Assembly (NCBI GenBank): GCA_025351525.1
Contig: JANXVV010000109.1
Coordinates: 1-40,040, forward strand
DNA from: Humisphaera sp.
GTDB taxonomy: Bacteria; Planctomycetota; Phycisphaerae; Tepidisphaerales; Tepidisphaeraceae
Direction of reading: 5' to 3'
Length of the DNA stretch: 40,040 nucleotides
Position numbers and translations under genes: made by a program
Notes under the pieces: model-generated
What the model saw: only the letters and a program-made list of their open reading frames with translations
The model's database searches: none
Told to the model about the DNA's origin: nothing
Shown here: piece by piece, positions 2,925 to 37,580 of the stretch
Numbering within the stretch: position 1 is the first letter of the stretch
Layout: every line of letters starts with the position of its first letter

Positions 2925-3256
2925 TTTTTTAGCGGCTGTGCCGAAGGCACGCGTTTTCGGGTGCGTGACGCTTTCAGCGGCATTAAAGTAGCATGGGCAT
3001 CCTGCCCGTGTTCGCGGTACCCCGCGATGTCGATCGGTACTCCGATCGACCCAAGCCGAAGCGAAGCGCTCTTCCAACGCTTGAATAAGAAAGACCGCTT
3101 CGCTCTTGCTGGATTGACCGGAGTACCGGTCAACGCCGTGGAGTACCACGGCCATGAACAGGATGCCCATGCTACGAAAATGCCGCAGGAAGTGTCACGC
3201 AACTCGCGTTTTTTCTACCCCGGTAAACGCGTGCCTTCGGCACTGCCACTAAAAGG
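2925..3256. repeat. Composite ~330-bp imperfect palindrome (REP/MITE-like)
   Basis: Outer arms are TTAGCGGCTGTGCCGAAGGCACGCGTTTT (2929-2958) and its inverse AAACGCGTGCCTTCGGCACTGCCACTAAAAGG (3226-3256). Inner arms are GTAGCATGGGCATCCTGCCC (from 2988) and GGATGCCCATGCTAC (to 3175). The ORFs 2921..3202(-) and 2961..3308(+) translate to look-alike peptides, as expected from the dyad symmetry. Confidence 0.8.
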
Positions 3257-7584: not shown

Positions 7585-7608
7585 GTAAGCTCGGATGAAG
7601 CGTTGCGA

Positions 7609-7671
7609 CGTAGCATGGGCTACCAGCCCATGCTTTCAATTCCAAAACATGGGCTGGTAGCCCATGCTACG
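7609..7671. repeat. Nested double-hairpin REP element, full copy
   Basis: CGTAGCATGGGCTACCAGCCCATG - CTTTCAATTCCAAAA - CATGGGCTGGTAGCCCATGCTACG. Each 24-nt arm is itself a hairpin (CATGGGCT-ACC-AGCCCATG). It sits between the stop of 7705..8580(-) and the start of the sulfatase gene. Confidence 0.9.
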
Positions 7672-7704
7672 TAAAAGTGACGAACATTGATTCATCCCGA
7701 CCCT

Positions 7705-8621: not shown

Positions 8622-8763
8622 TTCACCACGAAGACACAAAGCACACGACGGAATCGGAAAAGGAACTTTCTTCGCGTTCAACTTCCTCTTTTGCGTCTTC
8701 GCGGCTCCCCCTGAATTCGGTTGCCGATCTGACGCGATGGGCTTTTCGTGCTTTCGTGGTGAA
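8622..8763. repeat. MITE-like element with TCACCACGAA(A)G(C)ACR... terminal inverted repeats
   Basis: The left end is TTCACCACGAAGACACAAAGCACACGA. The right end, reverse-complemented, is TTCACCACGAAAGCACGAAAAGC. A second, better-conserved copy is at 33282-33429. Confidence 0.6.
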
Positions 8764-8965
8764 CTGAATTGGTCCAGGCTAGCACACTCTACCTGAAAGA
8801 AACCTGAAGAACCTCATTTCAGTCAATCTCACGTCCGACAATGTTATTTAATCTCATTTACCCCAAATTGCCCATATTAACCAAAGTCGGCGGTAAATCT
8901 GCCGATATAAGGGGTGTAGAGATGACCAGTTTAACAAACCATCCGGCACTTTTTAGGAGACTCCC

Positions 8966-9424: not shown

Positions 9425-9654
9425 ATTTTTGCCGCTCGGCTTAGCCCGGCCACAAACTGACGTCGGGACCACCGCTGATTGCCTTTAGCGATGATCCCGG
9501 ACACCGACTCGCCGACGGGATCTCCTTCCTCCGTCGGCGGTGTCGTTGAAACGCGAGCTGCCGGAATCCGGGTCGTCGCCTGAGGCTCCGATCCCGGCGT
9601 GAACGAAGTTTATTGACACTTCAGCAAACCCTTGGTCATCCAAAACGCAATTCG

Positions 9655-9965: not shown

Positions 9966-10931
9966 TTGAGCCGTCTGCATACTTTCACTCGCCTTCTCAT
10001 TTCACGTCGTCGCCCAAGGTGGATCGGCGGCGGACCGCAAGCCGATCTCAAAGACGTGGTGAAGGTCGTGTGGAACGCGGGCCATCTCAACACCGCGCAC
10101 GCCTGGATCGAGCAGACGCGCAAAGGCATCGGCGCGAAAGGGAAGTTCGCCTACTACGGCTCTGGAACAGTGACGAACGCCATCAGCGCCGAGGTCACGT
10201 TCAACGATGGGTCGATCAAAAACGTTCCGCTTTCACCTGATTTCCAATCGCCGGTGGATGATGGCATCCACCTCCGCAGCACCTACCGGCCCATCGAAAC
10301 CGGCGGTGGTGCCGTCTGGTTCGATGTGGATCTCGACCTGTACGCATCGCGCAACGAGCTGTTTCACAAGATCGATCATGTCGAGTGGCTCTTCGGGCCG
10401 CCTTTTGAAAATCAGCGACGAGTTGCCATCGGAAGCACGACCAATTTCAACGTTTCGGTCAGTACGCTTAAAGAGTTTCGCGTGCGGGCGAAGGTGATCT
10501 ATCGCGATGGCTCCGTGAAGGAACTGTCGCATTGGGTCGAACTGGGGCCGTCCGGAAAATATGCGGATGTGCGGCGGATTGAGATGCAGGCGACGAACTC
10601 CTATCTCGGGGTGCTGGCCGGCAAACCGAATTGGCGCGTTCGCATTCGTCCGATGGGCGATTGGGACACGCTCGACACGCTGCAAAGCGTGAAATACAAA
10701 GTGCCTGCTGCGGTATGGCCGGGCGGAATTCAGGAAGTGCCGGCGGAGAAAACCCCCCGATGGTCGATTCGAGTTCAGCGCATCGGAACCCTTCGACGGG
10801 ACGGCGGATATCGTCTTCAAAAGCGGGATGTTGACGCGCCTGCCATTCTCGGTGAGCAAGCTCGCCGATCGGCAGGATCAGATCGGCCTCGCGGTGGAGG
10901 TGGGCAGGGAGAAGCTGCCCAACTTCGGTAG
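9966..10931 (+). CDS. Tandem pYEATS-like repeat protein, 5' fragment (frame 0); probably a disrupted gene
   Basis: There is no ATG; the listed start is TTG. The translation contains repeated modules of the type W-x-hydrophobic ... L..I..V.Y/W ... F.hydrophobic ... V.F.DGS...L. Examples are AVWFDVDLDLYASRNELFHKIDHVEWLFGPPFENQRRV..FNVSV..FRVRAKVIYRDGSVKELSHWVEL. After about 10750 the translation becomes Arg/Gly-rich nonsense. Confidence 0.55.
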   Translation: MSRLHTFTRLLISRRRPRWIGGGPQADLKDVVKVVWNAGHLNTAHAWIEQTRKGIGAKGKFAYYGSGTVTNAISAEVTFNDGSIKNVPLSPDFQSPVDDGIHLRSTYRPIETGGGAVWFDVDLDLYASRNELFHKIDHVEWLFGPPFENQRRVAIGSTTNFNVSVSTLKEFRVRAKVIYRDGSVKELSHWVELGPSGKYADVRRIEMQATNSYLGVLAGKPNWRVRIRPMGDWDTLDTLQSVKYKVPAAVWPGGIQEVPAEKTPRWSIRVQRIGTLRRDGGYRLQKRDVDAPAILGEQARRSAGSDRPRGGGGQGEAAQLR

Positions 10932-11352
10932 AGCGGTCACCTGGAAAGCTTGGCCGAGCGGCCCGGAGATACAGTTGAAGCGCATTCTGCGTGTCGATTA
11001 TGACTACCGGGTCGACGGTCACACCCAGCACACGACGGTGGATCCCTCGCACAAGGAAATTCCCGAATTTCTAGGTTGCGGCGGCGTGGTGACGGATGGA
11101 TCGCCGCTGCGGGCCATCGTCTGGTTTAACGATGGGTCGCATCTCGCTTTATTTCATACCTTAAGTCCGATTGAAGAGGGCAAAGTGAGTGGTCAGCCGG
11201 CTGAATTGGAGGTGCAGCTGCGCGAGCGTTATTGGGAAATCGAAGCGGGCAAACCGACCTGGTCGATCCGCGCCGAATTGATCGGTTCGGCGGCGAATCT
11301 GGCGAAGATCACGTTGATCGATGAGACGATCGAGAAGCTGACTCGCGAATGA
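10828..11352 (+). CDS. Tandem pYEATS-like repeat protein, 3' fragment (frame +1), continuation of 9966..10931
   Basis: This frame is open from 10693 and continues the repeat pattern (DGRFEFSASEPFDGTADIVFKSGMLTRLPFSV, RAIVWFNDGSHLALFHTL, YWEIEAGKPTWSIRAELIG). The last module stops half-way, at ITLIDETIEKLTRE followed by the stop codon. Confidence 0.55.
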   Translation: MLTRLPFSVSKLADRQDQIGLAVEVGREKLPNFGRAVTWKAWPSGPEIQLKRILRVDYDYRVDGHTQHTTVDPSHKEIPEFLGCGGVVTDGSPLRAIVWFNDGSHLALFHTLSPIEEGKVSGQPAELEVQLRERYWEIEAGKPTWSIRAELIGSAANLAKITLIDETIEKLTRE

Positions 11353-11405
11353 TCAGATTGGACGATGCGGATCACGTCGGCAGCAGCCGGCCAACGGCCC
11401 AGCGA

Positions 11406-11793
11406 GCCGTTCATTTTTTTCGGAAGTGTGGACGCGGCGAAGCCGCCACCGATTCGGAGCGGGCTTCAACGACCTTAATCTGAAAAACGACCGACCCCGC
11501 CCGCTCCGAATCGGAGGTGATTTTGATGTCCACGGTTCCAAATAAAGTTCGATCTTGCAAATGGTGAAGGAGCAGCCGTCACTTGGCTTTATCGGCGTGC
11601 GCTCGGTAAAATAACATATGTGATGTTTCGTGATTTTTAGGGTCGCCGTTCATTTTTTTCGGAACCGTGGACATCAAAATCACCTCCGATTCGGAGCGGG
11701 CGGGAACAGGCGTTTCCCTGAACAAACTCGTTGAAGCCCGCTCCGAATCGAAGGCGGCTTCGCCGCGTCCACACTTCCAAATAAGGTTCGATC
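11406..11793. repeat. Two 149-bp units (11406-11554, 11645-11793) with direct flanks and mutually inverted 110-bp cores
   Basis: The left flanks GCCGTTCATTTTTTTCGGAA are identical. The right flanks TTCCAAATAA(A/G)GTTCGATC have 1 mismatch. Core 11426-11535 equals the reverse complement of 11665-11774, except for 2 nt in the arms and 11 of 24 nt in the centre. Confidence 0.9.
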
Positions 11794-11819
11794 CTGCGGG
11801 AGAAATCCTTCGGATTCGA

Positions 11820-12368
11820 TCAGGAGAACAGTTGTGACACCGCAATCGAGAAACCGGGGAACACCTCGCCGCCCTCCAACAAATCCGTGGCCTGCAATCG
11901 GCGGACACGCCCGTCGGGAGAATGCACCGAAACCGTGCGTCTGCGCGGGTTCAACACCCACACCGCAACCGTCCCCGCCTCAAGATACTCGGCGACCTTG
12001 TCCTCCACTTCCTCCAGGGTGTCGCCGGGCGAAATGATCTCGACGGCAATGTCCGGCGACCCTTTGAAAAAACCCTTCGGCCTCGGATTCGGGATTCGGG
12101 CTTTACAAACAAAAGCCACATCCGGCGCACGAACCGTGTCGGGATCGCGCGAAAGACAGAAGCCCGCTTCGGAGGTCAGCACATCCCCGAGATCATTGGC
12201 AAGCGAGTGCCGACCCATTGCCGTGGCCAATCGGCCGCCAAAAGTACCGTGCTCGTATCCGGCCGGGGCCATGGTTCGCAACTCTCCCTTCACCAGTTCA
12301 TGCCGCATATTCCCGCTGGGCATTTCCAGCAATTCAGCCGCCGTCATCAATCCGGTAGTTGTCGACAT
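11820..12368 (-). CDS. Uma2 family (DUF820) putative endonuclease
   Basis: MSTTTGLMTAAELLEMP..., HELVKGEL, EHG, PDVAF and PDIAVEIISPGD...K..Y match the PD-(D/E)xK Uma2 pattern. I prefer the ATG at 12368 to the ORF-track start at 12419, which would overlap gnd. Confidence 0.8.
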   Translation of the reverse strand: MSTTTGLMTAAELLEMPSGNMRHELVKGELRTMAPAGYEHGTFGGRLATAMGRHSLANDLGDVLTSEAGFCLSRDPDTVRAPDVAFVCKARIPNPRPKGFFKGSPDIAVEIISPGDTLEEVEDKVAEYLEAGTVAVWVLNPRRRTVSVHSPDGRVRRLQATDLLEGGEVFPGFSIAVSQLFS

Positions 12369-12403
12369 AATGCACGCATTATACCGCGTTTGAGATTGCA
12401 TTC

Positions 12404-13846
12404 CTACTTCGCCGACCATTCCGTATGAATGAACTCCCCCGGTTTCTCAGTGCGCTCATAGGTATGCGCCCCAAAGAAATCCCGCTGGGCCTGTATCAGA
12501 TTGCCCGGCAGGCGCGCCCGGCGATAGGTGTCGTAGTACGCCAGCGAACCGCTGAACGCCGGCAGACCGATGCCGTTGGAAATGCCCATGGCCACGATGC
12601 GCCGCCAGGCGTCCTGCCGGCTGTTGATCATCTGGCGGAAATTGTCGTCCATCAGCAGATTCGGCAGACCCGGATTGCTCTTGAACGCCTTGGTAATCTC
12701 TTCCAGAAACGCCGCCCGGATGATGCACCCGGCCCGCCAGATCATGGGCAGATCGGGGAGGGTCATGTGAAAATCGAACCCGCCCTTGTCCTTCGGCTTG
12801 TTCGCCGCCGCCAGCATCGCCATGCCCTGCGCGTACGAACAAATTTTCGAGCAGTAGAGCGCATCCTTCACATCGTTGATGAACTGCTTGAGATCGCCGA
12901 CGAGAGGCTTGGGCTGCGGGCCACCGAGCGATTTTGCAGCCGCCACGCGTTCATCCTTGATCATCGACAGTTCCCGGCTGTCCACCGCCGCCGCCATCGT
13001 GGGGACGGGGACGATCAGATCGTTCGCGGATTTGATCGTCCACGTGCCGGTGCCCTTCATGCCGACCACATCGCGAATCTGTTCGACCAACGCCTGCTTT
13101 GGATTTTGCGGATCGGGGAAGTTGATCACCTTCTCGGTGATGTCGATCAGGAAACTCTGGAGCTCGCCGGTGTTCCAGTCGGCAAAGGTGTCCTTCAGCT
13201 GCGCGTTGTTCAAACCGCCGATGTTTTTCAGCAGATCGTACGCCTCGGCGATGAGCTGCATGTCGCCGTACTCGATGCCGTTGTGGACCATCTTGACGAA
13301 GTGGCCCGCCCCGCCGTCACCACAATAGGTGACGCACGGAACGCCATCGCTCGGGGCTTTCGCCGCGATTTTTTCGAGGATCGGGCGGACGTGCTCGTAG
13401 CTCTCGCGGTCGCCGCCCGGCATGATGCTCGGACCCCACAGCGCGCCCTCTTCACCCCCGCTGACCCCCATGCCGAAAAACTTGATGCCGGTGGGTTTCA
13501 GATACGCCACCCGCCGTTCGGTATCTGTGAACAGCGAATTGCCCCCATCCATCACGATGTCGCCCGGTTGAAGCAGCGGCTTGAGTTCCTCGATCACCGC
13601 ATCGACCGGTTTGCCGGCCTTCACCATGATCAGAATCCGCCGCGGCTTTTCGAGGTTGCCCACGAAGTCGGCGATCTTCTCGAACCCCTTCGCATTCTTC
13701 CCCTTCGCCAGCTCATTGATGAAATGTTCGGTCTTCGAGTAGGTCCGATTGTAGACCGCGATGGGGAACCCGTTCCGCTCGATGTTGAGCGCGATGTTCC
13801 GACCCATGACTTCCAATCCGATGATGCCGAATGCCTGACCGCTCAT
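12404..13846 (-). CDS. gnd: 6-phosphogluconate dehydrogenase, decarboxylating
   Basis: MSGQAFGIIGLEVMGRNIALNIERNGFPIAVYNRT (NADP Rossmann fold), GAGHFVKMVHNGIEYGDMQLIAEAY and RDFFGAHTYER. GAGGA lies 8 nt upstream of the ATG at 13846. Confidence 0.95.
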   Translation of the reverse strand: MSGQAFGIIGLEVMGRNIALNIERNGFPIAVYNRTYSKTEHFINELAKGKNAKGFEKIADFVGNLEKPRRILIMVKAGKPVDAVIEELKPLLQPGDIVMDGGNSLFTDTERRVAYLKPTGIKFFGMGVSGGEEGALWGPSIMPGGDRESYEHVRPILEKIAAKAPSDGVPCVTYCGDGGAGHFVKMVHNGIEYGDMQLIAEAYDLLKNIGGLNNAQLKDTFADWNTGELQSFLIDITEKVINFPDPQNPKQALVEQIRDVVGMKGTGTWTIKSANDLIVPVPTMAAAVDSRELSMIKDERVAAAKSLGGPQPKPLVGDLKQFINDVKDALYCSKICSYAQGMAMLAAANKPKDKGGFDFHMTLPDLPMIWRAGCIIRAAFLEEITKAFKSNPGLPNLLMDDNFRQMINSRQDAWRRIVAMGISNGIGLPAFSGSLAYYDTYRRARLPGNLIQAQRDFFGAHTYERTEKPGEFIHTEWSAK

Positions 13847-14001: not shown

Positions 14002-14898
14002 ATGGCCTCCCCCAAACACGCCCCCCGCGATGGTTCCCGCCGGTATCACGACCGAGTCGCCCGGCAGTATGATTCGATCTACGAGGATCCCTACTGGGAA
14101 TTCCACGATGAATTCACCTGGCGATCGATCAAGCCTTTTATTCCCCGCGACCTGTCCGCCCATTGTCTCGATCTCGGTTGCGGCACCGGCAAGTGGGGGT
14201 TGAAACTGTTGAAGACCGGCTTCGCCACCACCTTCGTCGATCACGCCGCCGCCATGATCGAGAAGACGCGAGAGAAGGTCGAGGCGATGGGGCCGAGGGC
14301 GAAAAAGGCCACGCTGCTGGCGGCCGACATGGTCGATCTGTCCTCCCTGCCGCTCGATCATTTTTCGCTGACCCTGGCGATGGGCGATCCCCTGTCGATC
14401 TGTTCCGATCCATTCAAAGCCGCCCGCGAGATGTACCGGGTGAGCAAACCCGGCGGCATCATCATCGCCACCGCCGACAACAAACTGGCCGCCCTCGATC
14501 ATTTCATCGAGCGCGGCAACTTGGACGCCCTGGCGGAGTTCATCCACACCGGCCGCACCCACTGGCTGACCGCCGATGAGCGAGAGCAGTTCGAGCTGAC
14601 CACCTTTACCCCTCTGTCCCTCCGCAGACTCTTTGAGAAATCCGGTTTCGAGGTGCTCGAAATCCTCGGTAAAACCATCCTCCCCGTGCGGAACAACAAG
14701 CAACTGCTGGCCTCACCGGACGCGGTGGAGCGATTGCTCAAGATGGAACTGGAACTTTCCAAAGACCCGGCGGCGGCGGCGCGGGCGGGACACTTGCAGA
14801 TCGTGGCCCGAAAGCCTGCGATCCACGCCGGGATCGAAGCCGCAGGCGACGACCCGGATTCCGCATCGACAGGTGCGGAGCCGCGCGCATGCCCGTGA
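14002..14898 (+). CDS. Class I SAM-dependent methyltransferase
   Basis: CLDLGCGTGKWG (motif I), LLAADMVDL and VSKPGGIIIA. I prefer the start at MASPKH (14002) to the TTG/GTG-extended ORF-track start at 13861. Confidence 0.8.
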   Translation: MASPKHAPRDGSRRYHDRVARQYDSIYEDPYWEFHDEFTWRSIKPFIPRDLSAHCLDLGCGTGKWGLKLLKTGFATTFVDHAAAMIEKTREKVEAMGPRAKKATLLAADMVDLSSLPLDHFSLTLAMGDPLSICSDPFKAAREMYRVSKPGGIIIATADNKLAALDHFIERGNLDALAEFIHTGRTHWLTADEREQFELTTFTPLSLRRLFEKSGFEVLEILGKTILPVRNNKQLLASPDAVERLLKMELELSKDPAAAARAGHLQIVARKPAIHAGIEAAGDDPDSASTGAEPRACP

Positions 14899-15637: not shown

Positions 15638-16077
15638 GGACTGCCCCACGGATGACGGGCGCGGCGAAGGGGCTAATTGAATCTCGCCTCGAACGCTTCG
15701 GGGCTGAGGTACTCTAACAAACTGTGTAACCTTTTGCGATTGTAAAATATTTCAATGTATTCAAAGATCGATTGCCTTGCCCGCTCGCGCGTGGCGTACT
15801 GCACGCCGCGGTCGCGCAGACCGTTTCCCCTTCGGCTTCGATCGCGGCACACACGCGCCGGCTGCCGTATACGCACCGGTTCTCCTCATGCACTTTTTTG
15901 ATTTTCACTTTCAGCGCTTCCATGCGTTTGGCCGCCTCGGGGATCGTGTACCCCTGGGCATTCACCAGACTCACCGTGGAAATCTCGAACTCACGCGTGT
16001 ACTTTCGATTGGCCATCCATCGCTCCTTTGCAGCAGATTATCCTCCATTCGCCGCGCCCGTCATCCGTGGGGCAGTC
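15638..16077 (-). mobile_element. Internally deleted IS3-family mini-element with perfect 31-bp terminal inverted repeats
   Basis: GGACTGCCCCACGGATGACGGGCGCGGCGAA at 15638-15668 is the exact reverse complement of 16047-16077. The internal reading frames carry IS3 OrfA and OrfB fragments. Confidence 0.85.
15673..16016 (-). pseudogene. IS3-family transposase remnant (orfA HTH start fused to orfB start and orfB C-terminus)
   Basis: MANRKYTREFEISTVSLV..GYTIPEAAKR is the Orf[32 protein letters not shown] is the OrfB N-terminus. [35 protein letters not shown], in another frame, is the rve C-terminus. AAGGAG precedes the ATG at 16016. Only ~115 codons remain of a normal ~400. Confidence 0.85.
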
Positions 16078-16274
16078 CGGTTCCCCGTTCCCGCATCATT
16101 CAAACATTCATCATTCGTCATTGATTCGTGAATTCGAATTTCGTCCTTCGTCATTCCTCCCGCCTCCCGGAAGGTGTCGCGGGGGATCACGGTGCCGAGG
16201 CGTGGGCGCATGCCGGTGGCCCACGGCGGTGCTGTCGGTGGCGAACATGGACAGCCGACGCCTGATCGGGCGAT

Positions 16275-19081: not shown

Positions 19082-20539
19082 TCAGTGATACCACCAACTG
19101 GCCGTCAACCAACTGTTTTCACCGTGGCTGGACATCAGATGCACACAGTAGAGGATGCCAAAAATGACGTGGAGCGAAAACGTGAACATGCAGAGTGCGG
19201 AGCGCCAGTCGATGGTTTGCTTCGGACGGGGCAGCGATCGACTCGCGCGAATCCTCGCGATGGCGAACAGGGTGGATTCGACGAACAGAACGAACAGGGC
19301 CAGCTGCGCGCTCCACAGGAAATTTCCATGGCGGGTTCGTTTGGTTTCGGCGATGAGATAGGTGAAAAGCAATCCGACCGCGAACACGAGCCATGCCAGA
19401 TTCAACCGCGAACGCGACCGCGCTTCCCGCCACCATGTGAGATAGCAGGTGACGGGAAACAAAATTGACAGCAGAAGTTTCGGCGCCAAATGTCGCGACA
19501 TCGCGGACATCGTCGCGAGCGGCGAAAAAATCGCGTGCGCCCCGCCGGTGTAGCGCGCGTATATCCAACTTTGCCAGCCCAGCACCAAAAACGTCGGCAG
19601 CACCAAGCCCATGAGAAGGAAAGTCCAGCGGACCGGTTGGCTGAATATCCATTGCCGAAGAACAGCCATGAACAATACGCCCGGCACGAGGCACAACAGG
19701 AAGCTGGGTTTGGCCATCGCACCCGCAATCACCAGAACGGCGAATGCCATGGTTGCGAACCACGACGGGCGGGCGTTCGATTTCGACTGCTCCGGGAATC
19801 CCGCGAGAGTCACGAGGAATGTCAGCAGGACGAACGGTTTGGCCGCGATGACGGTGGGGTTGTGCCAGACATTGATGCCGATGTATCCGAAGTAATAGCG
19901 GCCATCCTGCACGTGCAGTAGCGCAATCGGAGTGAGGATCATCAGACCGATGACGAGCGCCACCCCCGCGAGAGTGCCGAGCGCGCTGTCGATCGCCGTC
20001 GCCGTGCGAATCCGGGTCCAGAGGATCATGGACAACAGCCATGCGAAAAATACATTCGTGATGATGGCGGCGGTGGCGTACTGCGTGCTGACTTCCGCCA
20101 GGACCTCATCGTCCACCTCACCGCGAGAATTTCCGACGGCGATTTGGGCGGCGGCGGTCTGGCGATTCCCTTGAAACACTTCCACCCCCTTCTGCACGCC
20201 GATCAACACCCCATGATAAAGCGGATGGGGGATCATCACGGTTCGCTGTTCGCGCAACTCGGCAGCCAGCACACTGTGTGGCGGGAAATCCGACTGCGGG
20301 ACGATCGCCGGTGTGCCGCGAATTCCCCGGCTGAGCAAAGGTGCGAAAAGGGTGGGGATGATCGCGACCAGCAGGGACGTTGCGAAAAGGTCTAATCGAT
20401 CAAGACGCCAAACTTTATCGAGAATGCCTGAAAGCGGTCGAACCATTTTCATTCTCAATTGCTCCAATGGATCTGCTCCACTTTTTGCATCAATCAGATC
20501 CTTGAAAGTCCTCAGAGTTTGTGAATGAGAACGTAGCAT
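19082..20539 (-). CDS. Large polytopic membrane protein (roughly 10 or more hydrophobic segments), last gene of the glycan operon; possible GT-C-type transferase or polymerase
   Basis: The 485-aa ORF is rich in hydrophobic helices (LLVAIIPTLFAPLL, AAIITNVFFAWLLSMILW, LAGVALVIGLMILTPIALL, FLLMGLVLPTFLVLGW and others). The start is uncertain: the annotated ATG lies inside a REP half-copy, and internal Met30/Met32 are alternatives. Confidence 0.7.
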   Translation of the reverse strand: MLRSHSQTLRTFKDLIDAKSGADPLEQLRMKMVRPLSGILDKVWRLDRLDLFATSLLVAIIPTLFAPLLSRGIRGTPAIVPQSDFPPHSVLAAELREQRTVMIPHPLYHGVLIGVQKGVEVFQGNRQTAAAQIAVGNSRGEVDDEVLAEVSTQYATAAIITNVFFAWLLSMILWTRIRTATAIDSALGTLAGVALVIGLMILTPIALLHVQDGRYYFGYIGINVWHNPTVIAAKPFVLLTFLVTLAGFPEQSKSNARPSWFATMAFAVLVIAGAMAKPSFLLCLVPGVLFMAVLRQWIFSQPVRWTFLLMGLVLPTFLVLGWQSWIYARYTGGAHAIFSPLATMSAMSRHLAPKLLLSILFPVTCYLTWWREARSRSRLNLAWLVFAVGLLFTYLIAETKRTRHGNFLWSAQLALFVLFVESTLFAIARIRASRSLPRPKQTIDWRSALCMFTFSLHVIFGILYCVHLMSSHGENSWLTASWWYH

Positions 20540-20547
20540 GGGCTACC

Positions 20548-24777: not shown

Positions 24778-24827
24778 CGACGATCCTTGTCGGTGCGATA
24801 CTGTCACTAAGAACCCGTGAAACCTTG

Positions 24828-24889
24828 CGTGGCATGGGCCACCAGCCCATGTTTTCAATTCAAAACATGGGCGGGTAGCCCATGCTACG
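24828..24889. repeat. Nested double-hairpin REP element, full copy, inside the operon
   Basis: CGTGGCATGGGCCACCAGCCCATG - TTTTCAATTCAAAA - CATGGGCGGGTAGCCCATGCTACG. It contains the TAG stop (24885-24887) of the WecD-like gene. Confidence 0.9.
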
Positions 24890-25637
24890 AGTCGCCTCGC
24901 GAAAACCAGCGGTGGTAGTATAGTTCAAGCGTGCGGGGGATAAAACCGGTGCGCGCGTAGAGTCGTTGTGCCGCCATATTTCGGCCTTGCGTTACCACCG
25001 AAACACGCCGCACGTTCTGTGCGATGAACCACTCCATCGCCGCCGCCACGAGTTGCCGACCAAGCCCTTTTCCTTGGTGCGGTACATCCACCGCGATCAA
25101 ACCGATACTCCCCTCGTCACTTTCTTTCGAGCGATGACACGTGACATATCCCCCGACTGAACCTTTTACGTCACTCACGAAAACCGCCTGCGCGAATCCC
25201 TCGAAGCTCGATTGAATCCAGGTCTCGTAAAGTGATTCGCACTGTTCGCGGGGAAACCGATCATCGTAGAAAAACCGGGTATCCGTATGACTGATCCTGG
25301 CGATGCGCCGCATCTCCGAAAGGTCGTCAATTCTCGTTTCCCGAATGCCGCTCACCGGCTTAGCCATCCCCGGTCGAGGTGCATCAGACACCGTTCGTTC
25401 CAAAGTCATTCTCACATCGACCAGATGAAACTCCCACGCCTCCGCCAGTGTGACAGTGACTGAATCATCCGACCGCGCCAGAAAATAAAGGCACTGAATC
25501 CGCCGTTCTTCGCACCAGCATTCGATGGCGTCGGCAATATCGGGAGTGAGAACGTTGCCCCGCACGCGGGCGACCGGAAACCCGAAAAAGTTCGAGTCCC
25601 AGGGAAGCAGTTCGCACGGTTCGGCGGGGGATTCCAC
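24885..25637 (-). CDS. GNAT N-acetyltransferase, WecD (dTDP-fucosamine acetyltransferase)-like
   Basis: LLPWDSNFFGFPVARV at the N-terminus, GYVTCH....IGLIAVD...GKGLGRQLV and VSVVTQGRNMAAQRLYARTGF follow the WecD layout. I prefer the GTG at 25637 (AAGGA upstream, 4 nt after the GT2 stop). The ORF-track start at 25733 would overlap the GT2 gene by 92 nt. Confidence 0.7.
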   Translation of the reverse strand: MESPAEPCELLPWDSNFFGFPVARVRGNVLTPDIADAIECWCEERRIQCLYFLARSDDSVTVTLAEAWEFHLVDVRMTLERTVSDAPRPGMAKPVSGIRETRIDDLSEMRRIARISHTDTRFFYDDRFPREQCESLYETWIQSSFEGFAQAVFVSDVKGSVGGYVTCHRSKESDEGSIGLIAVDVPHQGKGLGRQLVAAAMEWFIAQNVRRVSVVTQGRNMAAQRLYARTGFIPRTLELYYHRWFSRGDS

Positions 25638-33055: not shown

Positions 33056-33099
33056 GTGCCTTTGATAGAGTGTCAATGAGGCGTCGTGCTCAGGGTGCA

Positions 33100-33250
33100 G
33101 GACATAACCTGCGGCATTCAGGTGGCATGGGCGTCTCGCCCATGCGGTTGCGGTACTCCGCAACTATGGCCGGTATTCCGGACAATCCAACAAGAGCTGA
33201 GCGATCTTTCACGCTCATACGACATCGTGGAGTACCGCAACCATGAGCGG
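33100..33250. repeat. Degenerate copy of the inner part of the 2925-3256 composite palindrome
   Basis: GCGGCATTCAGGTGGCATGGGCGTCTCGCCCATGCGGTTGCGGTACTCCGC ... CGTGGAGTACCGCAACCATGAGCGG parallels 2975-3160. Confidence 0.6.
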
Positions 33251-33281: not shown

Positions 33282-33429
33282 TCACCACGAAAGCACGAAG
33301 AACACGAAAAAAAACCAGGCGATATGCTTTGTCATCTGCGCAACCTGCGCCGGCATGAACCCCCTTTGAATTATTGCTAATTTCCTATTCTCAAGGTCTT
33401 TATTCGTGTTCTTCGTGCTTTCCTGGTGA
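33282..33429. repeat. MITE-like element with 27-bp terminal inverted repeats (1 mismatch)
   Basis: TCACCACGAAAGCACGAAGAACACGAA (33282-33308) pairs with TTCGTGTTCTTCGTGCTTTCCTGGTGA (33403-33429). It belongs to the same family as 8622-8763. Confidence 0.75.
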
Positions 33430-35740: not shown

Positions 35741-35932
35741 GGCGATCTCCTGGAATGTGCCAACCTTGGGAATTATCCCACAAGCATTGTTTCACGCAAG
35801 ATTCTTTCTCTGACGAAAACCACTCCCGCACGCGATGCAAACCGGAACCGCTCATCGCCTATCCTCAATTTTCTTCGTAGGCCCTTTTGACACTTCGCGC
35901 CGCTGTCATCCCGGATAGCCGGCGAATCAAGT

Positions 35933-35996
35933 CGTAGCATGGGCTACCAGCCCATGTTTTCAATTCAAAAAACATGGGCTAGTAGCCCATGCTACG
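35933..35996. repeat. Nested double-hairpin REP element, full copy
   Basis: CGTAGCATGGGCTACCAGCCCATG - TTTTCAATTCAAAAAA - CATGGGCTAGTAGCCCATGCTACG. It overlaps the last 6 codons and the TAG stop of the ligase gene. Confidence 0.9.
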
Positions 35997-37580
35997 TAAA
36001 AGCTCCTGCATCGTTTCCAACCGATCCGCCTCCGCCGGTTTCTTATCTTTCCTGATCCGCAAAATCTGCGGGAACCGCAGCGCGATCCCCGATTTGTGCC
36101 GCGGCGACAACTGGATCGCCTCGAACCCGATCTCAAATACCATCAGCGGTTCGATCGTATGCACCGGCCCGTGCCGCCCCGTTGTGTGACGGCGGGCGAA
36201 GCGGTCGATCTCGACGATCTCCACATCGGTCAATCCGGAATACGCCTTGGTAATCGGAACCAGCGAGCCGTTATCCCACACGCCAAACGTGTAATCCGTC
36301 AGCAGCCCCGCACGCCGGCCACGGCCAGGTTCGGCGGCGATCATCACCGCATCCATCGTGTACGGCTCCACCTTCAGCTTCCACCACAATCCCGTTGGCC
36401 GGCCCGGTTGATAGGGGGATGCCAGTCGTTTCAGCATGATGCCCTCAACGCCGCGCGATCTGGCTTCCTCCATGATGTGCAGCACTTCATCCCACGTTTC
36501 GTAATGCAGCGGGGTGGATTTGCGAAGGGTGGAAGTTGTCGGGAAACTGGTTTCAAGCATGGCCCGCCGTTCGACAAGCGACCGATCGCGGACATCTGCG
36601 CCATCTATTTCAAGCGCATCAAATGCAATGAACGTCACCGGCACCTCCGGCCAGAAGGTCATCTCGACGGTCTGCCGATTCAATCGCCGTTGCAGGCGGA
36701 TGAAAGGTTCCGGTTTGGAAGTCTCATCGTTCCACGCGACGATTTCCCCATCCAGCACCGTGCCTTCCGGAAGCGCCGATGCCGCCTGAATGATTTCCGG
36801 AAATGCGCCGGACACCACTTCATCGCCGCGCGACCAGAGGGTGATCTGACCGGCCCGCCGAATCAGCTGCGCGCGGATGCCGTCCCATTTCCATTCGATC
36901 AACCAATCCGCGATGGCCCCAAGCGAAGAGGTGCCATCGTGCAGCGCGTGCGCCAGCATGAACGGGTACGGCGTCCCCGAATCGGCGACGGCGGCGGGAT
37001 CGTGCCGTGCGAGAAGCCGATCCATCGTCGTCTCATCCGGCATCCACTGGCCCGCCAACCGATGCGCCATCACCGCGGAACTCACATCCGCCACTTCCGC
37101 CAGCGCCCGGATCAGCAACTGCTTGGAAACGCCGACGCGGAAATTCCCGCTCAACAATTTGTGGAAGACCAACCGCTCATCGGTGTTCAGTTGCGACCAG
37201 GTGCCCAAGATCACTTCTCGCTGGCTGTCCTGCGTGATGCTCCCCAATGGCCGCACCCGCTCTTCAACGATTTCGTGGAGCGACGGCGCATTCGTGTCGG
37301 CCACCGTTGGAACCAGCAGTGAAATGGTTTCCGAAAGATCACCCACCACGCGATAGCATTGATCCACCAGCCAATCCGGATAGCCCGAGGCTTCGGCGGC
37401 CCATTGCCGTAGAAGTCGCGACGACACCGCCTTGCCGATCTTGCGGCCGGAGACGATGAAAATCGCCCACGCCGCATCCAACGGCGGGGCTTCCCGAAAA
37501 TATCGACCGAGCGCGGCGATCTTTTCGCTCGTTCGCGTCGTCTCGTCCAGCTCGAAATAGAGCGCGGTGAATCGCTTCAC
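35979..37580 (-). CDS. ATP-dependent DNA ligase, ligase-associated damage-response (PP_1105/cisplatin-response) type
   Basis: The adenylation motif I EWKWDGIR is present, along with FMLAHAL, EGIMLKR and LWWKLK. The protein is 533 aa. The GTG start overlaps the upstream stop as GTGA. Confidence 0.85.
   Translation of the reverse strand: MKRFTALYFELDETTRTSEKIAALGRYFREAPPLDAAWAIFIVSGRKIGKAVSSRLLRQWAAEASGYPDWLVDQCYRVVGDLSETISLLVPTVADTNAPSLHEIVEERVRPLGSITQDSQREVILGTWSQLNTDERLVFHKLLSGNFRVGVSKQLLIRALAEVADVSSAVMAHRLAGQWMPDETTMDRLLARHDPAAVADSGTPYPFMLAHALHDGTSSLGAIADWLIEWKWDGIRAQLIRRAGQITLWSRGDEVVSGAFPEIIQAASALPEGTVLDGEIVAWNDETSKPEPFIRLQRRLNRQTVEMTFWPEVPVTFIAFDALEIDGADVRDRSLVERRAMLETSFPTTSTLRKSTPLHYETWDEVLHIMEEARSRGVEGIMLKRLASPYQPGRPTGLWWKLKVEPYTMDAVMIAAEPGRGRRAGLLTDYTFGVWDNGSLVPITKAYSGLTDVEIVEIDRFARRHTTGRHGPVHTIEPLMVFEIGFEAIQLSPRHKSGIALRFPQILRIRKDKKPAEADRLETMQELLRSMGY

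What the first reader, a model, noticed from the sequence alone, without database searches (positions are those of the whole stretch)
11406..11793. Two tandem 149-bp units with identical direct flanks but reverse-complemented cores (inversion footprint and 390-bp nested hairpin)
**Structure.** Unit 1 is 11406-11554 and unit 2 is 11645-11793, separated by 90 bp. Both begin GCCGTTCATTTTTTTCGGAA and end TTCCAAATAA(A/G)GTTCGATC in the same orientation. The 110 bp between GGAA and TTCC are reverse complements of each other (11426-11535 versus 11665-11774). The 47-nt and 39-nt arms differ at only 2 positions, whereas the central 24 nt (11473-11496) differ at 11 positions.

**Pairing consequences.** 11496-11539 pairs perfectly (44 bp) with 11661-11704. 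11422-11472 pairs with 11728-11778 (51 bp, 2 mismatches). Alternatively each unit folds on itself through CCGATTCGGAGCGGGC/GCCCGCTCCGAATCGG and GTGGAC/GTCCAC, with an asymmetric internal loop containing a GCGGC-GAA-GCCGC mini-hairpin. Conserved arms with a diverged apex argue that the structure, or a protein-recognised arm, is under constraint.

**Interpretation.** Direct flanks plus an inverted core are what a site-specific invertible segment would look like if captured in both orientations. The same pattern would arise from one MITE inserted in opposite orientations into a duplicated target. No recombinase or transposase gene is nearby. The structure lies between the truncated pYEATS-like gene and the stop codon of a Uma2 nuclease gene.
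Basis: seen in the sequence. Interest (0 to 1): 0.7.

Follow-up and report, generated by a model that had tools for sequence, protein, structure and literature searches.

The report
Flipped spacer between two hairpin repeats
Two inverted copies of a strongly conserved ~110-base hairpin sit between two convergent genes of a planctomycete, and the 129 bases between them lie in the opposite orientation in close relatives, which explains the odd "same flanks, flipped core" pattern as a small, probably passive DNA inversion rather than a new kind of switch.

Summary

The interpretation needs correcting. Three contigs from close relatives (L082, L092, L095; Uma2 gene 89-95% identical in L082 and L095) carry both cores in the same orientation as here. 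In them the segment between the cores (window 11536-11664: inner R flank, 90-nt spacer, inner L flank) is inverted. A fourth contig (L096) shows the same state by one discriminating base. In the relatives each unit is a hairpin with perfectly complementary flanks (L-core-L', R'-core-R). So the cores are the inverted repeats and the middle flipped.

Core arms and flanks differ by 2% between strains, against 10% at fourfold sites, 23% in the spacer and 42% in the hairpin apex. They are therefore under constraint. All non-Watson-Crick stem positions are G·U on the strand co-directional with each upstream gene, which suggests RNA hairpins at the 3' ends of two convergent transcripts.

I found no other copies, no recombinase or transposase in 40 kb, no Rfam family and no conserved promoter.

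The most likely cause is recombination or template switching between the 44-bp identical inner arms. A programmed switch, a mobile-element origin or a mis-oriented assembly cannot be excluded without reads.

The parts
11393..11420 (+). Small terminator-like hairpin AACGGC-CCAGCGA-GCCGTT followed by CATTTTTTT. Its 3' half and T-run are the first 15 nt of the outer L flank.
   Evidence: Terminator scan. The hairpin is conserved in L090/L092/L096 with one loop change (C/T), while the 40 nt upstream are unalignable.
11406..11425 (+). Outer L flank, GCCGTTCATTTTTTTCGGAA. It is fixed next to the pYEATS-side gene in all haplotypes.
   Evidence: Identical in the window, L090, L091, L092 and L096.
11426..11535 (+). 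Core 1, the left inverted repeat. It is a 110-nt hairpin whose G·U-compatible ('sense') strand is the + strand, co-directional with the upstream + gene. The conserved arms are 11426-11464 and 11499-11535 and the variable apex is about 11465-11498.
   Evidence: CM R1 scores 137 bits on + against 59 bits on -.
11536..11664 (.). The segment that is inverted relative to close relatives. It consists of inner R flank (11536-11554), a 90-nt poorly conserved spacer (11555-11644) and inner L flank (11645-11664).
   Evidence: The window + strand aligns colinearly with L082 and L095 read in the opposite (Uma2-sense) direction. Alignment score to a state-B rearrangement of the window is 430, against 262 for the window as it is. 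L092 shows the reverse-complemented segment on one contig.
11665..11774 (-). Core 2, the right inverted repeat. It is the same hairpin with its sense strand on the - strand, co-directional with gnd-Uma2.
   Evidence: CM R1 scores 139 bits on - against 59 bits on +.
11775..11797 (+). Outer R flank, TTCCAAATAAGGTTCGATC(CTGC). It is fixed next to Uma2 in all haplotypes.
11802..11818 (-). Small hairpin directly after the Uma2 stop codon, CGAATCC-GAA-GGATTTC.
   Evidence: There is a compensatory change between strains: A-U in the window and L095 becomes G-C in L082/L084 (CGGATCC-GAA-GGATCTC).

Best explanation
Between the convergent pYEATS-like gene and the gnd-Uma2 genes lie two inverted copies of one conserved hairpin element. 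Each has a 38-pair core stem, a free-to-vary 34-nt apex and AT-rich flanks.

SHOWN: in three spanning contigs from close relatives each copy has perfectly complementary flanks (L-core-L' and R'-core-R). A fourth contig agrees by one base.

SHOWN: arms and flanks are far more conserved between strains than synonymous sites or the neighbouring non-coding DNA, and stem imperfections are G·U only on the strand co-directional with each upstream gene.

INFERRED: the inversion arose by exchange between the two cores, either homologous recombination or replication template switching within the 44-bp identical inner arms. It needed no dedicated recombinase and is probably an incidental polymorphism.

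INFERRED: the hairpins act as RNA structures at the 3' ends of the two convergent transcripts (3'-end protection, processing or read-through block). This resembles REP-like elements, although this pair is not shown to belong to a dispersed repeat family.
For: Inversion:
- L082, L092 and L095 each span core, inner segment and the start or whole of the second core. All give L C L' S' R' C' R, against the window's L C R S L C' R. L096 ends ...TTCCG, consistent with L'.
- The relatives are close. gnd+Uma2 DNA is 95.3% identical to L082 over 1433 nt without gaps, and gnd-Uma2 synteny is kept.

Constraint (window vs L082):
- Arms plus flanks differ at 3/144 positions. Post-stop plus spacer DNA differs at 27/116 (Fisher p = 6e-8). 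Fourfold sites differ at 24/235 and the apex at 10/24.
- Six core alleles differ at 0-3 of 84 arm positions but at 3-13 of 34 apex positions, with no indels.

Strand asymmetry:
- On the sense strand 37-38 of 38 pairs form, with 5-6 G·U. On the antisense strand these become A·C mismatches.
- Three independent C>T changes all give U·G on the sense strand. G>A turns G·U into A-U, and A/T turns A·A into U-A.
- The CM scores ~138 bits on the sense strand against ~59 bits on the antisense.
- G·T stem pairs and a position between convergent ORFs are the published arguments that REPs act as RNA (PMC3733652).

Mechanism:
- The inner arms are a perfect 44-bp inverted repeat.
- Template switching between inverted repeats is documented to invert spacers and homogenise arms (PMC8604942).
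- No recombinase or transposase domain was found in the window ORFs scanned.
Against: - Only the window shows state A, and its reads are not available, so a mis-oriented assembly cannot be excluded.
- There are no transcript data. The RNA role rests on 8:1 G·U versus A·C counts (binomial p about 0.02, partly biased because the pair list came from the sense fold) and on no double compensatory change.
- A canonical small terminator (11393-11420) lies upstream of core 1, so core 1 may be poorly transcribed from the + gene.
- The big hairpin has its U-run 5' and an A-rich run 3', so it is not itself an intrinsic terminator.
- L and R flanks are 100% conserved even though state A destroys their perfect pairing. 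This fits a sequence-specific (protein-binding or recombination-site) role at least as well as a passive one.
- The whole genome could not be searched for further copies or for a distant recombinase.
Confidence: 0.55

Rival explanations
1. Programmed inverton. A site-specific recombinase encoded elsewhere reversibly flips the 129-bp segment, using sites in or next to the cores. Flipping toggles each hairpin between a perfectly paired base (L/L', R'/R) and an imperfect one (L/R), or re-orients a promoter in the spacer. Either would change read-through or antisense transcription across the convergent genes.
For: Both orientations exist among close strains. The ends of the flipped segment (inner L and R) and the inverted repeats are nearly invariant, whereas the spacer diverges 23%. 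A sigma-70-like site TTGGCT-18-TAAAAT lies in the spacer. Seven of the eight related contigs carrying this locus end inside the element (L001, L082, L084, L090, L091, L093, L096), and the other contigs end at its edges.
Against: No recombinase domain was found in the window ORFs scanned. The -10 box is not conserved in the Y haplotype (TGAAAC) and the spacer has a 10-nt deletion there. Both neighbouring genes point inward, so there is nothing for a promoter to switch on. All contigs from the relatives that reach the discriminating sequence show one state, and no sample shows both. The 110-nt, self-folding inverted repeats are unlike the 10-30-bp repeats of described invertons (PMC11892184, PMC11602134). 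The contig ends are also explained by low coverage and strain mixtures. For example, both Logan contigs stop at the last strain-specific 31-mer.
Confidence: 0.12
2. Mobile element origin. Each unit (L-core-L' or R'-core-R) is a MITE/REPIN-like non-autonomous transposon with perfect terminal inverted repeats. Two copies landed tail to tail, and the inversion is a later accident.
For: In the relatives' arrangement each unit is 148-150 nt with perfect 19-20-nt terminal inverted repeats. The pair is absent from the orthologous position in the L083/L094 and L085-L089 lineages, where Uma2 is followed by pfkB. The locus is a synteny breakpoint. The same window carries an unrelated GTAG-tagged REP doublet family, so this genome does host such repeats (PMC3733652).
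Against: No other copy was found in the window, in ~60 kb of close relatives or in 1.4 Mb of fetched loci with a covariance model. Exact-pattern scans found none in GTDB representative genomes, JGI metagenomes or IMG/VR, and BLAST found none in plasmids or phages. No called ORF anywhere overlaps a copy. There is no consistent target-site duplication, no GTAG/CGTC tag, and no transposase or RAYT in the window. Recent insertion cannot explain why arms stay at 2% divergence while the spacer between the two copies has reached 23%.
Confidence: 0.15
3. Assembly artefact. The true arrangement in this genome is the same as in the relatives, and the assembler traversed the short repeat-flanked middle segment in the wrong direction.
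For: A short segment between inverted repeats is a classic ambiguity. Three spanning contigs and a fourth by one base show the other orientation. The two Logan contigs of the same strain (L001, L093; Uma2 100% identical) stop inside arm A and cannot confirm the window's state.
Against: Only 44 bp are identical between the two inner arms, and the apexes differ at 11 positions. Any k-mer or read of about 60 nt or more therefore fixes the orientation. The window's junction Uma2 / R' / start of core 2 is confirmed by the two independent Logan contigs.
Confidence: 0.12

Closest known systems
REP / BIME elements (repetitive extragenic palindromes; Di Nocera et al. 2013, PMC3733652)
   Same: Both are extragenic imperfect palindromes lying between convergent ORFs. 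Units occur in opposite orientation and can fold into larger structures. G·T(U) stem pairs point to an RNA role downstream of genes.
   Different: REPs are 20-40 bp, carry a GTAG or CGTC tag and occur in tens to hundreds of dispersed copies. Here the units are 110-150 nt and untagged, and only this one pair was found in all DNA that could be searched.
REPINs (two inverted REPs plus spacer forming a hairpin, mobilised by RAYT; PMC3337134)
   Same: Both are hairpins with highly conserved arms and a variable middle, with no coding capacity.
   Different: No RAYT gene and no population of copies were seen. The arms here contain asymmetric G·U-paired segments rather than two simple REPs.
Spacer inversion between inverted repeats by replication template switching or recombination (Ripley-type; PMC8604942). 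Hairpin-loop 'flip-flop' inversions of chloroplast non-coding DNA are similar (own knowledge).
   Same: The segment between two inverted repeats is found reverse-complemented in a sister lineage while the repeats stay unchanged, and the arms are kept alike.
   Different: Published cases mostly concern arms of about 10-20 bp and spacers of a few bases. Here the arms are 110 nt (44 bp perfect next to the spacer) and the spacer is 129 bp, which is also within reach of RecA recombination.
Invertons / invertible promoters (PMC11892184, PMC11602134)
   Same: An intergenic segment bounded by inverted repeats occurs in both orientations.
   Different: There is no invertase nearby, no conserved promoter and no gene positioned to be switched. 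The repeats are far longer and fold on themselves. Both states have not been seen within one population.
Bacterial MITEs
   Same: The size (about 150 nt) fits, the relatives' arrangement has perfect terminal inverted repeats, and presence or absence varies between lineages.
   Different: There is no target-site duplication, no further copies and no parent IS.

Membership tests
REP / BIME | Many dispersed copies per genome | tested here: inconclusive
   There is no further copy in the 40-kb window or in 1.41 Mb of fetched loci. Pattern scans found none. The complete source genome was not available.
REP / BIME | GTAG or CGTC tetranucleotide at one end of a 20-40-bp palindrome | tested here: not met
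   Read directly in the sequence. The units are 110-150 nt and carry no such tag. A different family in the window does carry GTAG.
REP / BIME | Extragenic, downstream of ORFs, with G·T stem pairs | tested here: met
   The gap is convergent. Each allele has 5-6 G·U pairs on the gene-sense strand only.
REPIN | Associated RAYT (Y1 transposase) gene | tested here: inconclusive
   No Y1_Tnp or other transposase domain was found in the window ORFs. The rest of the genome is unseen.
REPIN | Hairpin of two conserved inverted arms with a less conserved middle | tested here: met
   Arms differ at 0-3 of 84 positions and the apex at 3-13 of 34 among six alleles.
MITE | Terminal inverted repeats | tested here: met
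   The flanks are perfect over 19-20 nt in L092, L095 and L082. They are imperfect in the window because of the inversion.
MITE | Target-site duplication | tested here: not met
   The junctions read ..AGTGA|L...L'|GACGC and ..CGCAA|R'...R|TTGTA. There is no consistent direct repeat.
MITE | Multiple copies at unrelated sites | tested here: inconclusive
   None was found in the DNA available. The complete genome was not searched.
Inverton (invertible promoter) | Segment bounded by inverted repeats and seen in both orientations | tested here: met
   The window differs from L082/L092/L095, but only between genomes.
Inverton (invertible promoter) | Both orientations within one population (reads) | not testable with these tools
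   There is no read access. All contigs of the relatives' samples that reach the discriminating sequence show one state.
Inverton (invertible promoter) | Invertase gene nearby | tested here: not met
   Pfam scans of 31 window ORFs found none.
Inverton (invertible promoter) | Promoter or coding sequence in the invertible part that changes expression of a neighbour | tested here: not met
   There is one weak sigma-70-like site, and its -10 box is lost in the Y haplotype. Both neighbouring genes are convergent.
Intrinsic terminator | GC-rich hairpin directly followed by a U-run | tested here: not met
   On both strands the large hairpins have the U-run 5' and an A-rich run 3'. Only the small hairpin at 11393-11420 fits.
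Integron attC | R'' RYYYAAC and R' GTTRRRY boxes, with sites in one orientation separated by cassettes | tested here: not met
   By inspection, GTTCGAT and GTTCATT violate the consensus. The units are inverted and 129 bp apart without an ORF.
Any Rfam family | Score at or above the gathering threshold | tested here: not met
   The best matches are 25 bits to miRNA-precursor models with thresholds of 70-200.

The most novel reading that the evidence does not exclude
The pair is a reversible DNA switch of an undescribed type. Its recombination sites are two structured, sequence-constrained hairpin repeats. Flipping the 129-bp cassette swaps the 3' flanks of two convergent RNA hairpins, so each alternates between a perfectly paired stem of about 60 bp and a stem with an open base. 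This would co-regulate 3'-end formation or stability of both convergent transcripts. It would explain why the L and R flanks are invariant in both states.
Probability: 0.1. Interest if true: 0.75.

Novelty: new member of a known kind. Interest (0 to 1): 0.4.

Why it matters
The finding shows how a puzzling pattern of direct flanks with an inverted core arises from an ordinary event: inversion of the spacer between two inverted hairpin repeats. It also gives a worked example in which comparison with fragmentary metagenome contigs settled which part moved.

The hairpin itself is an unannotated element under clear purifying selection in an uncultured planctomycete lineage related to Tepidisphaeraceae. 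It shows strand-specific G·U evidence for an RNA role at the ends of two convergent transcription units.

If flipping proved reversible within a population, it would be a new way to couple a DNA switch to RNA 3'-end structure. On present evidence that is a minority possibility.

Tried and rejected
1. Rfam returned only sub-threshold miRNA-like hairpin hits.

2. The exact hairpin pattern TTCGGAGCGGGC-N20-50-GCCCGCTCCGAA gave 0 hits in GTDB representative genomes and JGI metagenomes. This is explained by the lack of close relatives there. The best gnd match is 71% and the best JGI Uma2 match is 57-58%.

3. The invariant 20-mer GGTGATTTTGATGTCCACGG gave 6 JGI hits and 1 IMG/VR hit. None is the element by covariance model.

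4. BLAST against plasmids and phages found nothing.

5. A six-frame 'protein' query, meant to catch ORFs mis-called over other copies, found nothing among 5.8 billion proteins.

6. Small-protein reading. An ORF VDIKITS(D/N)SERA...VEARS.S.AASP(R/C)PHF is open on the antisense strand in all six alleles. However, all five arm substitutions are non-synonymous, the apex changes are nearly all non-synonymous, and the C-terminus depends on the flank. I rejected this reading (own translation).

7. DGR-like diversification of the apex. The changes are not adenine-specific and there is no reverse transcriptase. I rejected it.

8. Apex hypervariability as a dedicated mechanism. L092 and L095 are identical at 323 non-apex positions but differ at 13 of 34 apex positions. 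However, Uma2 genes and their downstream DNA are mosaic between the same contigs. Recombination between diverged lineages with breakpoints hidden in the invariant arms is therefore a sufficient explanation.

9. Apex alleles as inversions of each other, or as complementary between unit 1 and unit 2 (kissing loops). Inspection did not support either.

10. Invertible promoter. The -10 box is not conserved.

11. Contig ends as evidence for mixed orientations. The positions do not coincide with the expected branch point, and low coverage or strain variants explain them.

Full report
**1.

The two 149-nt units are at the stated coordinates.
- The left flanks are identical (20/20) and the right flanks match at 18/19.
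- The 110-nt cores are reverse complements (97/110, against 35/110 in direct register). Eleven of the 13 differences lie in the central ~24 nt.
- The 44-bp perfect and 51-bp two-mismatch cross-pairings are as described.
- None of the motifs recurs in the window, and chance expectation is zero.
- Each unit folds well below shuffled controls, and so does the whole 441-nt region.
- The region fills the gap between two convergent genes: ORF 10828-11352 (+), downstream of a pYEATS-domain ORF, and a Uma2 gene at 11820-12419 (-) that overlaps gnd.

**2. Where the window comes from, and why the DNA scans were empty**

The nearest gnd in GTDB representative genomes is a Tepidisphaeraceae MAG at 71% identity with no synteny. 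The nearest JGI Uma2 is 57-58% identical. Empty pattern scans of genomes and JGI metagenomes therefore say little. Plasmids, phages, IMG/VR and Rfam also gave nothing.

**3. Orthologous loci in close relatives**

A protein search with Uma2 found ENA and Logan proteins at 96, 90, 87 and 75% identity, all next to gnd. A search with the upstream ORF found one cluster at 88% over its C-terminal part. Fetching their contigs gave the decisive comparison. Below, L and R are the flanks, C is the core, S is the spacer, and a prime marks the reverse complement.

- **Window:** read from the pYEATS side, it is L C R S L C' R.
- **L092:** this single 2234-bp contig, read in the same direction, is L C L' S' R' C' followed by TTCCAA, where the contig ends.
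- **L095:** read from Uma2, it is R' C R S L C' followed by TTCC at the contig end. This is the same arrangement seen from the other side.
- **L082:** it has a 96% identical Uma2, and its gnd+Uma2 DNA is 95.3% identical to the window. It reads R' C R S L and then the first 8 nt of C'.
- **L096:** it ends L C TTCCG, where the G distinguishes L' from R.

The window's + strand 11536-11664 aligns colinearly with the inner segments of L082 and L095 read in the opposite direction. Re-orienting that segment raises the alignment score of the L082 tail from 262 to 430. Both cores therefore keep their orientation relative to the outer genes, and the 129-bp middle (inner R, spacer, inner L) is what differs.

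In the relatives each unit has perfectly complementary 19-20-nt flanks.

**4. The element is under constraint**

Between the window and L082:
- arms plus flanks differ at 3 of 144 positions;
- the post-stop and spacer DNA differs at 27 of 116 (Fisher p = 6e-8);
- fourfold-degenerate sites of gnd and Uma2 differ at 24 of 235;
- the apex differs at 10 of 24.

Six core alleles (window 1 and 2, Y1, Y2, X2, Z1) differ at 0-3 of 84 arm positions and 3-13 of 34 apex positions, with no indels. Conversion between the two copies of one genome cannot by itself lower divergence between lineages (inference from neutral theory). The arms and flanks are therefore selectively maintained.

The apex and spacer behave as unconstrained or faster-evolving sequence. 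L092 and L095 are identical outside the apex of unit 1 but differ at 13 positions inside it. The Uma2 genes and their downstream DNA are visibly mosaic among the same contigs. Recombination between diverged lineages, with breakpoints hidden in the invariant arms, is therefore a sufficient explanation.

**5. Strand asymmetry**

I derived a 38-pair stem model from the fold.
- Every allele forms 37-38 pairs on the strand that begins GGAAGUGUGGAC, including 5-6 G·U pairs.
- On the complementary strand these G·U pairs are A·C mismatches.
- Three independent polymorphic C>T changes all create U·G on that strand. One G>A turns G·U into A-U, and one A/T difference turns A·A into U-A.
- The covariance model scores about 138 bits on that strand and about 59 bits on the other.
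- That strand is + for core 1 and - for core 2, so each is co-directional with its upstream gene.

This is the argument used for REPs being RNA elements (PMC3733652). It is suggestive rather than strong. The count is 8 of 9 (p about 0.02), the pair list came from the sense fold, and there is no double compensatory change.

The large hairpins are not intrinsic terminators, because the U-run is 5' and the A-rich run is 3' on both strands. A small canonical terminator-like hairpin uses the first bases of the outer L. A small hairpin after the Uma2 stop codon shows one compensatory A-U to G-C change between strains.

**6. Mechanism of the inversion**

The inner arms form a perfect 44-bp inverted repeat 121 bp apart. 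That is enough for RecA-type exchange. It is also the classical substrate for replication template switching, which is documented to invert spacers and keep arms alike (PMC8604942).

Pfam scans of 31 window ORFs show metabolic, transport, methyltransferase, ligase and similar genes, but no recombinase or transposase. The only promoter-like site in the flipped segment loses its -10 box in one haplotype. The neighbouring genes point inward. I therefore rate a passive inversion as most likely.

I keep a programmed switch as a minority possibility. The invariant L and R flanks at the ends of the flipped segment are not explained by a purely passive model once their pairing is broken.

**7. Mobile-element reading**

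In the relatives' arrangement the units look like MITEs (about 150 nt, perfect terminal repeats). The pair is also absent from the L083/L094 and L085-L089 lineages, where Uma2 is followed by pfkB.

Against this reading:
- The covariance model finds no other copy in the window or in 1.41 Mb of fetched DNA.
- No called ORF in 5.8 billion proteins overlaps a copy.
- There is no target-site duplication and no GTAG/CGTC tag.

Copy number in the complete genome remains untested.

**8. Caveat on assembly**

State A is seen only in the window. The two Logan contigs of the same strain stop inside arm A. The two cores differ in their apexes and share only 44 bp next to the middle segment, so a mis-orientation is unlikely, but it cannot be excluded without reads.

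**9. Verdict**

The 'inversion footprint' idea is right in spirit but wrong about which part moved. The thing itself is a conserved pair of hairpin repeats, REP-like in place and behaviour but not shown to be a REP, REPIN or MITE, with an inversion polymorphism mediated by the inverted repeats. It is a new member of known kinds and of moderate interest.

Noticed in passing
window 7608-7675, 24825-24893, 35922-36000; partial or degenerate copies at 20523-20547, 2975-3025, 3153-3201, 33096-33144: This is a separate repeat family. Inverted doublets of a GTAG-tagged palindrome (ACGTAGCATGGGCTACCAGCCCATGC .. CATGGGCTGGTAGCCCATGCTACGT) lie in intergenic gaps and look like classical REP/REPIN units. 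No RAYT gene is present in the window.
   Followed up: partly
window 2927-3254: An intergenic composite palindrome of about 330 bp. It has nested arms of 35 nt (89% complementary) and 92 nt (77% complementary) built from several small hairpins, and it includes degenerate copies of the GTAG repeat.
   Followed up: partly
window 9562-9601 and 14824-14863: A 40-nt inverted repeat (95% complementary) brackets the 5.2-kb block containing the pYEATS-like genes, the hairpin pair, Uma2, gnd and a methyltransferase. Both copies encode HAGI(E/G)A(A/S)GDDPDS. Relatives (L085, L094) have different neighbours on both sides of gnd-Uma2, so a larger rearrangement may have used these repeats.
   Followed up: no
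window 15638-15671 / 16045-16078 and 33282-33316 / 33395-33429: Two further intergenic inverted-repeat pairs (34 nt at 97% and 35 nt at 91%) enclose 373 and 78 nt. The second shares the motif CACGAAAGCACGAA with 8745-8780.
   Followed up: no
window 9966-10931 and 10828-11352; L092 569-1090 and 1047-1811: The genes upstream of unit 1 form an overlapping ORF pair in different frames, both in the window and in the relatives. Only the last ~75 codons are well conserved between them (88%). The pYEATS domain is detected only in the first window ORF.
   Followed up: partly
L083 1439-1540, L094 6156-6255, L085 6820-7545: Lineages with 75-90% identical Uma2 lack the hairpin pair entirely, and Uma2 is followed by pfkB. 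In L085-L089 a 185-aa ORF on the other strand lies between them. The hairpin pair therefore sits at a synteny breakpoint.
   Followed up: partly
L082/L084/L095 (Uma2 and downstream): The haplotypes are mosaic. L084 and L095 have 98.5% identical Uma2 genes but different downstream sequence. L082 and L084 have only 90% identical Uma2 genes but identical downstream sequence over 97 nt. This points to frequent recombination between co-occurring strains at this locus.
   Followed up: partly
window 11465-11498 and the same columns in five other alleles: The apex keeps exactly 34 nt in all six alleles despite up to 38% substitution. It contains a co-varying internal direct repeat (AACGACC..AACGACC in the window's unit 1, ACGAGCTT..ACGAGCTT in L082). 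This is unexplained.
   Followed up: partly
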